64,000 nucleotides of DNA from Eledone cirrhosa (taxonomy: Eukaryota), in contig OZ024748.1 of assembly GCA_964016885.1 (NCBI GenBank), positions 33,728,001-33,792,000 of the forward strand. The letters run 5' to 3'. The translations under genes were made by a program, and so were the position numbers. Numbering within the stretch: the first letter of the stretch is position 1; each line of letters opens with the position of its first letter. The notes beneath the pieces are model-generated. The model was not told the DNA's origin. It was given only the letters and a program-made list of their open reading frames with translations, and searched no databases. Shown here piece by piece: positions 32,416-48,925 of the stretch.

Positions 32416-33527
32416 AATATTTGTGGAAGAATGTAACACTAGGCCTTTTATTGTATTGGAAAGTCTCCTCGCTCATATTACAATATATTTAAATTTTTAA
32501 TAAAGAATTCATTAAGCATCAGTTCTCACAGGCCAGTCAAATTCCCTTCGTGGTGATGATCCGGACTGGACGTCATAAGTTGCCAACCCCTAACCTATAT
32601 GATTAATTATTTCATTTCATGAGAAACTATGCTACATCGTGAATTGTTTGTACCACATTTTACAGGACAGTGAGAAATAGGTTTAAATCACCAACATTTG
32701 AACAATTGACTTTCCTGGTCTATCTTTATTTTATTCTTGGACTTGAAATATAAAGTAATTTATTTGTATTGTTAACACAGCAGATATTGAGTACTTTTCT
32801 ACACTCCATGGCGAACAATCTGGATTCATTAAGATACAAACACAACCTTTTTCTTACACCAACAACAGTCTTACACAGTCATATCTACTTCTACAAAAAC
32901 AGTCATATCTACTTCTACAAAAATTACTATGGAGGACGTTAACCCTTTAACATTCACATTACTCTATCTACACAATTATATTTTCATGGTAAAGGCTTTA
33001 CCTTGCATAATTAACTCACTTAATATCGAATCTATGAGATTTTGAAAGTATTTATTTTGAGAACAATACCTTAACATCAGTTTGAGTGACCGGTTACAGC
33101 CAGTTTCAAAAGAAAGAGGTAGAGAATTCTGGCCGGTTTGGGCCGGTTTGAACATTAAAGGGAGATTTCTAACACAACTGTTTCTACCAATATAGATACA
33201 GATACACAGACATACAGTGGTGAGAAACCTTTGCCTAGTGAAACATGTACTGAACAAAGATCATTACACAGAAATATTCCTGAATATAACTGTGAGATTT
33301 GTAGGAAAACTTTCTCATCAGAAGATGAATTATCTACACACAAACACATACATATTAAAGACGAACCTGTCACTGTGAAATATCTGGGATATCTTTTGCT
33401 TCTAACAGTAATTTAACTATAAACAAAAGAACACATACTGGGGAGAAACCTTTCCACTGTGAAATATGTGAGCAGTATTTTGTCAGTAGCTGTAGTTTGA
33501 CTAAACACGAAAGAAAACACATTGGAG
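32416..33527 (+). pseudogene. C2H2 ZNF pseudogene copy 1 with 5' flank, 3'-truncated
   Basis: Homologous to 60361-60910; ATG 32929; MITE in codon 4/5; YNCEICRKTF..HKHIH finger then a 1-bp deletion; fused to satellite at CACATTGGAG. Confidence 0.93.
32943..33162. mobile_element. piggyBac-type MITE in ZNF copy 1
   Basis: TTAA|CCCTTTAACATT...CATTAAAGGG; colinear with the MITE at 52716-52938; right TTAA missing. Confidence 0.88.
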
Positions 33528-34627
33528 TCAATCAGTGGTGTTGTGGTGGACATTAGGTAGAGTGAATCATTGGTGGTGGACATTAGGTGGAGTGAATCAG
33601 TGGTGGTGGACATTAGGTAGAGTGAATCAGTGGTGGTGTGGTGGACATTAGGTAGAGTTAATCAGTGCTGGTGGACATTAGGTGGAGTGAATCAGTGGTG
33701 GTGGACATTAGGTAGAGTGAATCAGTGGTGATGTGGTGGACATTAGGTAGAGTGAATCATTGGTGGTGGACATTAGCTGGAGTGCATCAGTAGTGGGGTG
33801 GCGGACATTAGGTGGAGTTAATCAGTGGTGGTGGACATATGTAGAGTGAATCAGTGGTGGTGGACATTAGGTGGAGTGAATCAATGGTGGTGTGGTTTAC
33901 ATTAGGTGGAGTGAATCAGTGCTGGTGGACATTAAGTAGAGTGAATCAGTGGTGGTGGACATTAAGTAGACTGAATCAGTGGTGGTGGACAATAGGTGGA
34001 GTGAATCAGTAGTGGTGGCCATTAAGTAGACTGAATCAGTGGTGGTGGACATTAGGTGGAGTGAATCAGTGGTGGTGGACATTAGGTAGAAAGTAGGTGG
34101 TGTTAATCAGTATTGGTGTGGTGTACATTAGTTGGAGTGAATCAGTAGTGGTGGACATTAGGTAGAGTGGATCAGTGGTGGTGGACATTAGGTGGAGTGA
34201 ATCAGTGGTTTTGGACGTTAGGTGGAGTGAATCAGTGGTGGTGGACATTAGGTGGAGTGAATCAGTGGTGGTGGACATTAGGAGGAGTGAATCAGTGGGG
34301 GTGGACATTAGGTAGAGTTAATCAGTGTTGGTGGAAATTAGGTGGAATGATCAGAGGTGGTGGACATTAGGTGGAGTGAATCAGTGGTGGTGGACATTAG
34401 CTGGAGTGAATCAGTGGTGGTGGACATATGTAGAGTGAATCAGTGGTGGTGGACATTAGGTGGAGTGAATCAGTGGTGGTAGACATTAGCTGGAGTGAAT
34501 CAGTGGTGGTGGACATATGTGGAGTGAATCAGTGGTGGTGGACATTAGGTGGAGTTAATCAATGGTGGTGTGGTTTACATTAGGTGGAATGAATCAGTGG
34601 TGGTGGACATTAGATGGAGTTAATCAG
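33523..34627. repeat. 30-bp satellite between ZNF copies 1 and 2
   Basis: Same monomer, more variant units. Confidence 0.98.
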
Positions 34628-45788: not shown

Positions 45789-47390
45789 TCAATCAGTGGT
45801 GTTGTGGTGGACATTAGGTAGAGTTAATCAGTGCTGGTGGACATTAGGTGGAGTGAATCAGTGGTGGTGGACATTAGGTAGAGTGAATCAGTGGTGCTGT
45901 GGTGGACATTAGGTAGAGTGAATCATTGGTGGTGGACATTAGCTGGAGTGCATCAGTAGGGGGGTGGCAGACATTAGGTGGAGTTAATCAGTGGTAGTGG
46001 ACATTAGGTGGAGTGAATCAGTGGTGGTGGACATTAGGTGGAGTCAATCAGTGGTGGTGTGGTGGACATTAGGTAGAGTGAATCTTTGGTGGTGGACATT
46101 AGCTGGAGTGCATCAGTAGGGGGGTGGCGGACATTAGGTAGAGTTAATCAGTGGTGGTGGACATTAGGAGGAGTGAATCAGTGGTGGTGGACATTAGGTG
46201 GAGTGAATCAGTGGTGGTGGACATTAGCTGGAGTCAATGAGTGGTGGTGTGGTGGACATTAGGGAGAGTGAATCATTGGTGGTGGACATTAGGTGGAGTG
46301 AATTAATGGTGGTGGACATTAAGAGGAGTGAATCAGTGGTGGTGGACATTAGGTAGAGTGAATCAGTGGTGGTGGACATTAGGTGGAGAGAATCAGTGGT
46401 GGTGGACATTAGGTGGAGTGAATCAGTGGTGGTGTGGTTGAGATTAGGTGGAGTGAATTAGTGGTGGTGGACATTAGGTGGAGTGAATCAGTAATGGTGG
46501 ACATTAGATAGAATGAATCAGTGGAGATGGAGATTAGCTGGAGTCAATCAGTGGTGGTGTGGTGGACATTAGGGAGAGTGAATCATTGGTGGTGGACATT
46601 AGGTAGAGGGAATCAGTGGTGGTGGACATTAGGTAGAAGGAATCAGTGGCGGTGGACATTAGGTGGAGTGAATCAGTGGTGTTATACATCAGGTACTGTC
46701 AATCAGTGGTGGTGGACATTAGGTAGAGTGATAGAGTGGTGTTGTGGTGGACATAAGGTGGAGTGAATCAGTGGTGGTGGACATTAGGAGGAGTGAATCA
46801 GTGGTGGTGGACATTAGGTGGAGTGAATCAGTGGTGGTGGAGATTAGGTGGAGTGAATCAGTGGTGGTGGACATTAGGTAGAGTGAATCAGTGGTGGTGT
46901 GGTGGACATTAGGTGGAGTGAATCAGTGGTGGTGGACATTAGGTGGAGTGAATCAGTGGTGTTAGACATCAGGTACTGTCAATCAGTGGTGGTGGACATT
47001 AGGTAGAGTGATACAGTGGTGTTGTGGTGGACATAAGGTGGTGTCAATCAGTGGTGGTGGACATTAGGTGGAGTGAATCAGTGGTGGCGTGGTTGACGTT
47101 AGGTAGAATGAATCAGTGGTGGTGGACAATAGGTGGAGTGAATCAGTGGTGGTGGACATTAGATAGAGTGAATCAGTGGTGGTGGACATTAGGTAGAGTG
47201 AATCGGTGGTGGTGGACATTAGGTGCAGTGAATTAGTGGTGGTGGACATTAGATGGAGTGAATCAGTGGTGGTGGACATATGTAGAGTGAATCAGTGGTG
47301 GTGGACATTAGGTGGAGTGAATCAATGGTGGTGTGGTTGACATTAGGTGGAATGAATCAGTGGTGGTGGACATTAGATGGAGTTAATCAG
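45784..47390. repeat. 30-bp satellite, last block
   Basis: Same monomer; ends ...ATTAGATGGAGTTAATCAG like the other blocks. Confidence 0.98.
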
Positions 47391-48925
47391 AATATTTGTG
47401 GAAGAATGTAACACTAGGCCTTTTATTGTATTGGAAAGTCTCCTCGCTCATATTACAATATATTTAAATTTTAAATAAAGAATTCATTAAGCATCAGTTC
47501 TCACAGGCCATTCAAAATCCCTTCGTGGTCATGATCCGGACTGGACGTCATAAGTTGCCAACCCCTAACCTATATGATTAAATATTTCATTTCATGAGAA
47601 ACTATGCTACATCGTGAATTGTTTGTATCACATTTTACAGGACAGTGAGAAATAGGTTTAAATCACCAACATTTGAACAATTGACTTTCCTGGTCTATCT
47701 TTATTTTATACTTGGACTTGAAATATAAAGTAATTTATTTGTATTGTTAACACAGCAGATATTGAGTACTTTTCTACACTCCATGGCGAACAATCTGGAT
47801 TCATTAAGATACAAACACAACCTTTTTCTTACACCAACAACAGTCTTACACAGTCATATCTACTTCTACTAAAACAGTCATATCTACTTCTACAAAAATT
47901 ACTATGGAGGACGTTAACCCTTTAACATTCACATTACTCTATCTACACTATTATATTTTCATGGTAGAGGCTTTACCTTGCATAATTATCTCACTTAATA
48001 TCGAATCTATGAGATTTTGAAAGTATTTATTTTGAGAACAATACCTTAACATCAGTTTGAGTGACCGGTTACAGCCAGTTTCAAAAGAAAGAGGTAGAGA
48101 ATTCTGGCCGGTTTGGGCCGGTTTGAACATTAAAGGGAGATTTCTAACACAACTGTTTCTACCAATATAGATACAGATACACAGACATACAGTGGTGAGA
48201 AACCTTTGCCTAGTGAAACATGTACTGAACAAAGATCATTACACAGAAAAATTCCTGAATATAACTGTGAGATTTGTAGGAAAACTTTCTTATCAGAAGA
48301 TGAATTATCTACACACAAACACATACATATTAAAGACAAACCTGTCACTGTGAAATATCTGGGATATCTTTTGCTTCTAACAGTAATTTAGCTGTACACA
48401 AAAGAACACATACTGGAGAGAAACCTTTCCATTGTGAAATATCTGAGATATCTTTTGCTTCTAACAGTAATTTAACTGTACACAAAAGAACACATACTGG
48501 AGAGAAACCTTTCCATTGTGAAATATCTGAGATATCTTTTGCTTCTAACAGTAATTTAACTGTACACAAAAGAACACATACTGGGGAGAAACCTTTCCAC
48601 TGTGAAATATGTGGGCAGTATTTTGTCAGTAGCTGTAGTTTGACTAAACACGAAAGAAAACACACTGGAGAAAAGCCTTTCCATTGGAAAATATTTCTTG
48701 CAGAATTCTATTCTATTTAGGCACATAAGTATGCACACTGGAGAAAAAACCTATCACTGTGAAATACGTGGGAAATCATTTGGCAGAAGTGGTGACTTGA
48801 TTAAACACAAAAGAACACACACTGGAGAGAAACCCTATCATTGTGAAATATGTCAGAAATCTTTTTTCACTAAAAGTTAAATAAAAACAAACAAACTCAT
48901 ACTGCAGGGGAACGTTTTAACTATT
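47391..48925 (+). pseudogene. C2H2 ZNF pseudogene copy 4, full extent (probable parent copy)
   Basis: ATG 47904; MITE; frameshift; fingers with CEIS/CEIR instead of CEIC; continues past the HTGEK breakpoint into more fingers and a 3' flank homologous to 61900-62410. Confidence 0.93.
47918..48137. mobile_element. piggyBac-type MITE in ZNF copy 4
   Basis: Same insertion as copy 1. Confidence 0.88.

What the first reader, a model, noticed from the sequence alone, without database searches (positions are those of the whole stretch)
32416..48925. Satellite and zinc-finger pseudogene co-amplified as one compound tandem unit
Seen: four ZNF pseudogene blocks share the same left satellite junction (...GATGGAGTTAATCAG|AATATTTG). 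Copies 1-3 end at the same base, where the H-T-G-E linker (CACACTGGAG in copy 4) becomes CACATTGGAG|TCAATCAG, i.e. TGGAG microhomology with the satellite. Spacers are about 1.1, 8.8 and 1.6 kb of satellite. Inference: one microhomology-mediated duplication between a finger linker and the upstream satellite, then unequal exchange in the satellite multiplied the cassette. This would be a satellite-driven route to ZNF cluster expansion.
Basis: partly seen in the sequence, partly recalled or inferred. Interest (0 to 1): 0.75.

Follow-up and report, generated by a model that had tools for sequence, protein, structure and literature searches.

The report
Transposon-born satellite copying a dead gene
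A short repeat from inside a small transposon has grown into a 105-kb satellite next to an already broken zinc-finger gene, and local recombination likely copied a 1.1-kb piece of that dead gene three more times; this is an ordinary passenger amplification, and the repeat is absent from the 49 other zinc-finger-rich stretches sampled.

Summary
The four blocks, both junctions, the TGGAG overlap and the spacer sizes (1,100, 8,789, 1,602 bp) are as described. The interpretation needs three corrections. (1) The 'left junction' is not a rearrangement: the 30-bp satellite is the internal repeat of a dispersed non-autonomous hAT-type element (14-bp TIRs, 8-bp target duplications), and the first 177 bp of each block is that element's 3' arm; the same boundary occurs at 38 other genome sites. 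(2) All four copies share a 220-bp TTAA-element insertion after codon 4, a frameshift and a missing 5' region, so the gene was dead before it was copied. (3) Copy 3 is a mosaic (copy-4 alleles left, copy-1/2 junction right), so at least one exchange fell inside the cassette, not in the satellite. The 5-bp microhomology holds (0.6% by chance, one event). Generality fails: 0 repeat units in 49 zinc-finger-rich 10-kb stretches, and 1 of 38 element copies has a zinc-finger gene within 5 kb. MITE-derived satellites and satellite/ZNF-cluster links are known themes.

The parts
1..32415 (+). 30-bp satellite array, the expanded internal repeat of a non-autonomous hAT-type element; continues left to G000:C8:33,655,815 (about 105 kb, about 3,000 units)
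   Evidence: TRF period 30; extent; same unit inside dispersed elements
32416..32592 (+). 3' arm of the hAT-type element, copy 1; TIR at 32579-32592 with the last base changed; also the first 177 bp of copies 2, 3 and 4
   Evidence: dispersed matches at 77-88%; arm and TIR in other loci
32593..32600 (+). 8-bp word where homology to ZNF paralogues begins; likely the right-hand target-site duplication (left copy not found)
   Evidence: paralogue contexts; failed search for the 5' end
32593..33527 (+). ZNF pseudogene fragment, copy 1 (ATG at 32929), truncated in a linker; lacks one 74-bp finger unit present in copies 2 and 3
32943..33162 (+). 220-bp TTAA-flanked (piggyBac-like) element inserted after codon 4; present in all four copies; stops the frame after 38 codons
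   Evidence: intact relative at window 52712-52942
33523..33527 (+). TGGAG microhomology at the linker/satellite junction (also 35809-35813 and 45784-45788)
   Evidence: bridged by a 98-nt contig
33528..34627 (+). spacer 1: start like spacer 2, last 103 bp identical to the end of the main array
34628..35813 (+). cassette copy 2 (arm + ZNF fragment), identical to copy 1 over the first 972 bp
35814..44602 (+). spacer 2: ends related to spacer 3; about 3 kb of its middle matches kb-scale units of the main array at 95-97%
44603..45788 (+). cassette copy 3, mosaic: copy-4 alleles up to 45503, copy-1/2 alleles and junction from 45550
   Evidence: polarised variant table
45789..47390 (+). spacer 3
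47391..49000 (+). cassette copy 4: parent locus, keeps the 3' part of the ZNF exon and 3' flank; same insertion and frameshift; first three finger units after the frameshift have Ser for the second Cys
60350..61930 (+). neighbouring paralogue of the same ZNF subfamily (ATG 60680), without either insertion; frameshifted late; used as outgroup

Best explanation
The satellite is the internal 30-bp repeat of a dispersed non-autonomous hAT-type transposon, and the four blocks are copies of that element's 3' arm plus a broken zinc-finger exon, likely produced by one microhomology-guided tandem duplication and later unequal exchanges. Steps: (a) shown: the element's right end lies 336 bp upstream of the ATG of a gene in a C2H2 cluster, and its repeat has grown to about 105 kb; inferred: it inserted there and lost its 5' arm. 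(b) shown: all four copies share a TTAA-element insertion, a frameshift and loss of the upstream region; inferred: the gene was dead before copying. (c) shown: one junction with 5-bp overlap in copies 1-3; inferred: break repair or template switching joined a finger linker to an upstream monomer, giving truncated copy + spacer + full copy. (d) shown: copy 3 is a mosaic; inferred: unequal crossover between the full and the truncated copy within cassette positions 902-947 made it. (e) inferred: copies 1 and 2 arose recently by exchange between spacer and main array. The cassette is a neutral passenger.
For: Element anatomy: 17 distinct loci with both ends located, 14 with 8-bp flanking duplications identical (6) or one mismatch apart (8), counted from the table; repeat number inside runs from 0-1 to 60 and 576 in a copy with both arms and a 7/8 duplication on C6. 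The repeat/arm boundary 24-mer occurs at 38 sites on 15 contigs, control 0; one copy (L047) has the window's own GAATCAG|AATATTTG letters. Shared lesions. Microhomology null 0.6%. Mosaic: copies 1+2 share 7 derived alleles, copies 3+4 share 2 derived alleles (positions 860, 901; 3 of 3 paralogues agree), copies 1-3 share the derived allele at 948, two more changes near the junction and the junction itself. Spacer 1 begins like spacer 2 and ends like the main array. A second passenger, a 485-bp LTR-like piece with its satellite flanks, is duplicated at the other end of the same array (479 of 499 identical). No units in 49 of 49 ZNF-selected stretches.
Against: The 5' arm and left target duplication were not found in 67 kb left of the array or by a genome pattern search, so insertion at this site rests on the right end only. 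The donor monomer of the junction cannot be named: many near matches exist. The mosaic rests on 2 sites; reversion (8 of 189 exon sites differ from the paralogue consensus) or a short gene conversion could give the same pattern. One site splits c1+c3 from c2+c4, so the history is more tangled than five steps. Two of the three largest arrays found lie next to ZNF genes. Copy number was not verified with long reads.
Confidence: 0.8

Rival explanations
1. Satellite-driven route to ZNF cluster expansion: this satellite seeds microhomology duplications of ZNF genes and multiplies them across clusters.
For: The junction and microhomology are real. The 105-kb array lies inside a ZNF cluster and a second array of about 50 kb ends 4.5 kb from a ZNF gene 2.5 Mb away. 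ZNF-rich stretches carry many other tandem repeats of 48, 72 and 90 bp.
Against: 0 units in 40 stretches holding 87 finger clusters and in 9 more; 0 units in the 67 and 76 kb of cluster flanking the array; 1 of 38 element copies has a linker-type ZNF gene within 5 kb; the 576-unit C6 array has no such gene in 70 kb; the amplified piece is promoterless and broken. The two large C8 arrays are not independent chromosomes.
Confidence: 0.07
2. One or more copies are assembly duplications in a hard repeat region (above all copy 1 against copy 2).
For: Copies 1 and 2 are identical over 1,103 bp including flank; no listed contig spans a whole cassette.
Against: Copies 1 and 2 differ by a 74-bp finger unit and 3 substitutions near the junction; the three spacers differ in length and content; variants polarise sensibly against outgroups; a 98-nt contig of run X2 bridges the junction with 56 and 42 bases on its sides (this may be the assembly's own sample).
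Confidence: 0.08
3. Same origin, but all multiplication took place by exchange in the satellite; the copy-3 pattern comes from gene conversion from copy 4 or from two reversions in the ancestor of copies 1 and 2.
For: Only 2 sites unite copies 3 and 4 as derived; spacer 1 fits an exchange in the satellite; finger units show signs of conversion.
Against: All 9 informative sites left of position 902 group c3 with c4 and all shared derived features right of 947 group it with c1/c2; a single crossover also evens the branch lengths (7 against 6 and 4 changes).
Confidence: 0.05

Closest known systems
Satellite DNA born inside MITEs (miDNA4 of Xenopus tropicalis, Xstir of X. laevis; review PMC9659126, passages read) and tandem-repeat-containing MITE DTC84 of the clam Donax trunculus (PMC3879986, abstract read)
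   Same: A non-autonomous DNA element whose arms flank a variable number of internal repeats, with arrays growing to satellite size.
   Different: Here the ends are hAT-like (8-bp duplications) rather than Tc1/mariner or pearl type; arrays reach 19-105 kb; one array has captured flanking host sequence.
Beta-satellite repeats in the human 19p12 KRAB-ZNF cluster (Eichler et al. 1998; title seen only in reference lists; text not held; content recalled)
   Same: Satellite beside clustered C2H2 genes, proposed to help duplication.
   Different: As recalled, beta-satellite blocks lie between many genes of that cluster; this repeat is absent from the clusters sampled and is tied to one dead gene.
Octopus C2H2-ZNF clusters (PMC9795677, passages read); enrichment of 70-90-bp tandem repeats beside them (Albertin et al. 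2015; not held; recalled)
   Same: Large clustered single-exon-type C2H2 family; the sampled clusters are rich in 72- and 90-bp repeats. That this genome is an octopus is my recalled impression from repeat style and was not tested.
   Different: The 30-bp repeat here is not one of those cluster-wide repeats.
Microhomology-mediated tandem duplication followed by non-allelic homologous recombination (general knowledge; microhomology-mediated duplication mentioned in PMC9659126)
   Same: Short overlap at one founding junction, direct orientation, later mosaic copies.
   Different: One breakpoint lies in a satellite, so thousands of equivalent donor sites were on offer.

Membership tests
non-autonomous hAT-type DNA transposon (MITE) | short terminal inverted repeats starting CA(G) | tested here: met
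   14-bp TIRs at both ends of dispersed copies; right TIR in the window with the last base changed
non-autonomous hAT-type DNA transposon (MITE) | 8-bp target-site duplication | tested here: met
   14 of 17 distinct loci with both ends have 0-1 mismatch; the link of 8 bp to hAT is recalled knowledge
non-autonomous hAT-type DNA transposon (MITE) | both ends and duplication present at this locus | tested here: inconclusive
   only the 3' arm found; 5' arm absent from 67 kb to the left and from a pattern search
non-autonomous hAT-type DNA transposon (MITE) | autonomous partner with a hAT transposase and the same ends | not tested
   no search made
transposon-derived satellite DNA | monomer present in one or few copies in dispersed elements and in long arrays between the same arms | tested here: met
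   0-60 units; 576 units between both arms on C6; about 3,000 units here
C2H2 zinc-finger pseudogene | zf-C2H2 homology with disabling lesions | tested here: met
   Pfam PF13465 E 4.8e-26 for copy 4 fingers; insertion, stop after 38 codons and frameshift in all copies
C2H2 zinc-finger pseudogene | no functional transcript or product | not testable with these tools
   no RNA run was listed
piggyBac-like MITE in the exon | TTAA target and CCC-starting TIRs | tested here: met
   intact relative at 52712-52942 has TTAA on both sides and 13-bp TIRs; in the cassette the right TTAA is lost; the family label is recalled
microhomology-mediated tandem duplication | 2-10-bp overlap at the junction beyond chance, direct orientation | tested here: met
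   5 bp, 0.6% in random joins, single event
microhomology-mediated tandem duplication | unique donor breakpoint identified | tested here: inconclusive
   many near-identical candidate monomers
satellite-associated ZNF cluster expansion (19p12 type) | the satellite is interspersed among many genes of the clusters | tested here: not met
   0 units in 49 of 49 ZNF-selected 10-kb stretches
satellite-associated ZNF cluster expansion (19p12 type) | whole, potentially functional genes are duplicated | tested here: not met
   copies lack the upstream region and share disabling lesions

The most novel reading that the evidence does not exclude
The internal repeat of this hAT element grows to very large arrays preferentially inside zinc-finger cluster territory (two of the three largest arrays found), where it works as a portable amplifier: its TGGAG word matches every H-T-G-E linker, so it seeds duplications at finger boundaries, and at other loci or in other individuals it could copy or truncate live genes and change finger number.
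Probability: 0.1. Interest if true: 0.6.

Novelty: new member of a known kind. Interest (0 to 1): 0.27.

Why it matters
It is a clean, fully resolved example of how a transposon's internal repeat becomes a 100-kb satellite (a series from 1 to about 3,000 units in one genome) and then drags neighbouring DNA into tandem amplification. It also shows that counts of C2H2 genes in such clusters include amplified dead fragments. It does not explain how the ZNF clusters expanded.

Tried and rejected
Left junction as a rearrangement breakpoint: rejected. Spacers as colinear copies of one compound unit: rejected; only about 130-500 bp at the start and 60-300 bp at the end are shared. Search for the element's 5' arm and left target duplication: nothing fitting in 67 kb left of the array; a genome pattern gave 3 other element copies. 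The C8:31.1-Mb array as a recent copy of this one: no shared exact word of 150 bp. Satellite as coding repeat: several frames of the consensus are open, but 35-bp variants break frame (sequence); not pursued. Reads: no RNA holder listed; contig depth is no copy number, so not used; runs X4 and X5 gave no cover of the arm or junction, which is no evidence; the 3' part of copy 4 was not checked against reads. The C-to-T change next to the junction may be a later mutation or satellite-derived; not resolved. Earlier findings: two look-ups returned nothing. Literature: 8 searches listed no paper on this repeat or locus; Albertin 2015 and Eichler 1998 were not held; no supplements were read, and repeat libraries in genome-paper supplements may already hold this element. 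Genome searches score only the best candidates, so all genome counts are lower bounds.
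Full report
Setting. The window is G000:C8:33,728,001-33,792,000 of a 3.0-Gb animal genome. Its repeat style looks octopus-like to me; that is recalled and untested. Bases 1-47,390 are mostly a 30-bp tandem repeat. The array continues left to C8:33,655,815, about 105 kb and about 3,000 units, interrupted by an LTR-type element, LTR-like pieces and a LINE-like element. C2H2 genes lie on both sides of it.

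Observation. Over the first 972 bp the copies differ at 0 (c1/c2), 7 (c3/c4), 11 and 14 sites. They carry 2, 3, 3 and 4 finger units up to the junction point.

The left junction is part of a transposon. The first 185 bp of a block matched 40 of 40 scored genome places, 36 outside the window. Upstream of those matches lie one to dozens of copies of the same 30-bp unit and then a conserved 5' arm. Of 39 locus rows examined (35 distinct), 17 distinct loci had both ends located; 6 have identical and 8 have one-mismatch 8-bp flanking duplications; short copies are 440-510 bp with 14-bp TIRs (counted by hand from the table). A related subfamily has no unit at all. The repeat/arm boundary 24-mer occurs at 38 sites on 15 contigs, control 0. 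A copy on C6 has both arms, a 7-of-8 duplication and 576 units. So the satellite is the internal repeat of a non-autonomous element of hAT type (label from recalled family features), and the 'left junction' is its own boundary. In the window the right TIR ends at 32592, exactly where homology with ZNF paralogues begins, 336 bp upstream of the ATG. The 5' arm and the gene's upstream region were not found in 67 kb left of the array, nor by a genome pattern.

The gene was dead before copying. All four copies have a 220-bp TTAA-type element after codon 4, which stops the frame after 38 codons, and a frameshift before the main finger array; paralogues lack both. The fingers of copy 4 score against Pfam zf-H2C2_2 at E 4.8e-26. 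The family is large: 150 of 150 scored matches to the N-terminal 77 residues, clustered mainly on C27, C18 and C8.

The right junction. TGGAG is shared by the linker and by the monomer: it precedes TCAATCAG in 71 of 117 places. Random joins give 5 bp or more in 0.6% of 400,000 trials. This is one event, inherited by three copies. The donor monomer cannot be named. A 98-nt contig of run X2 spans the junction with 56 and 42 bases and one difference; the run may be the assembly's own sample, and no contig spans a whole cassette.

How the copies multiplied. Polarised against paralogues and other element copies, c1+c2 share 7 derived alleles, c3+c4 share 2 (positions 860 and 901), and c1+c2+c3 share position 948, two changes near the junction and the junction. 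No single tree fits without two exact reversions; only 8 of 189 exon sites offer that chance. A crossover between full and truncated copy at positions 902-947 explains copy 3. Gene conversion is not excluded, and one site groups c1 with c3. Spacer 1 starts like spacer 2 (94.8% over 521 bp) and ends in 103 bp identical to the end of the main array, which fits an exchange in the satellite for copies 1 and 2. Spacers 2 and 3 share starts and ends, while about 3 kb of spacer 2 matches kb-scale units of the main array at 95-97%. The unit is therefore not fixed. At the far end of the same array a 485-bp LTR-like piece with satellite flanks is also duplicated (479 of 499 identical): the array amplifies whatever it holds.

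Generality. In 40 stretches of 10 kb chosen for ZNF density on C27 and C18 there are 1,104 finger motifs in 87 clusters and 0 units of this repeat; 9 more stretches on C8 and C14 and the 67 and 76 kb flanking this array also have 0. Of the 38 boundary sites, 31 were checked over 10 kb (none with an H-T/S-G-E-K-P linker; one with 3 linkerless motifs) and 7; one of the 38 (C8:31.15 Mb) has a ZNF gene within 5 kb. Against my reading: that site ends an array of about 50 kb, so two of the three largest arrays found are beside ZNF genes, both on C8, and a 28-unit copy lies on ZNF-rich C27, 144 kb from the nearest listed gene. These samples were chosen, not random, and genome counts are lower bounds. 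The clusters do hold many other tandem repeats of 48, 72 and 90 bp.

Known context. Satellites born inside MITEs are documented (PMC9659126, passages; PMC3879986, abstract). A satellite/ZNF-cluster link was proposed for human 19p12 (Eichler 1998, title only in reference lists). Octopus C2H2 clusters are described in PMC9795677 (passages); PMC10547256 (passages) discusses ZNF expansion with transposons and does not describe this case in the passages seen. The octopus 70-90-bp repeat enrichment is recalled from a paper not held. Eight searches listed nothing on this repeat.

Verdict. Real structure, ordinary mechanism: a transposon-derived satellite with a locally amplified pseudogene fragment. 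Interest 0.27; new member of a known kind.

Noticed in passing
G000:C6:99,562,000-99,581,500 (L080-L082): Complete element with both arms, 7-of-8 target duplication and 576 internal units (about 19 kb): a satellite still inside its transposon.
   Followed up: partly
G000:C8:31,095,611-31,145,805 (L091, L136-L140): Second large array (about 50 kb, about 1,400 units) ending in the 3' arm, no 5' arm found, abutting another simple satellite on the left, with a 2.4-kb insertion with inverted ends, and a ZNF gene 4.5 kb to the right.
   Followed up: partly
G000:C8:33,655,561-33,665,331 (L026, L027): LTR-like piece of about 485 bp with satellite flanks present twice at 96% and once in an older form; beside it an LTR-retrotransposon-like insertion with a 980-codon open frame.
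   Followed up: partly
window 1-28,000: The array has kb-scale higher-order units (about 3.1 kb, with shorter variants) seen as recurring variant patterns in the TRF table and exact matches.
   Followed up: no
L093-L132 (C27, C18): ZNF genes spaced every 3.5-5 kb with recurring 48-, 72- and 90-bp tandem repeats between them; one 72-bp unit resembles part of the TTAA element found in the cassette. These are better candidates for a repeat-linked cluster expansion.
   Followed up: no
window 60680-61930: Paralogous ZNF gene with about 11 finger motifs and a late frameshift that cuts the frame at about 330 codons.
   Followed up: partly
window 49107-49325: 95-bp tandem repeat (2.3 copies) in the 3' flank of copy 4, similar to 90-94-bp repeats seen beside ZNF genes on C27.
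   Followed up: no
window 53200-59050: LTR-retrotransposon-like element on the minus strand (integrase and RNase H-like reading by eye), with repeats near 53200 and 55220.
   Followed up: no
G000:C20:4.05-5.22 Mb: Five equal-scoring matches to the 3' arm, suggesting a large segmental repeat.
   Followed up: no
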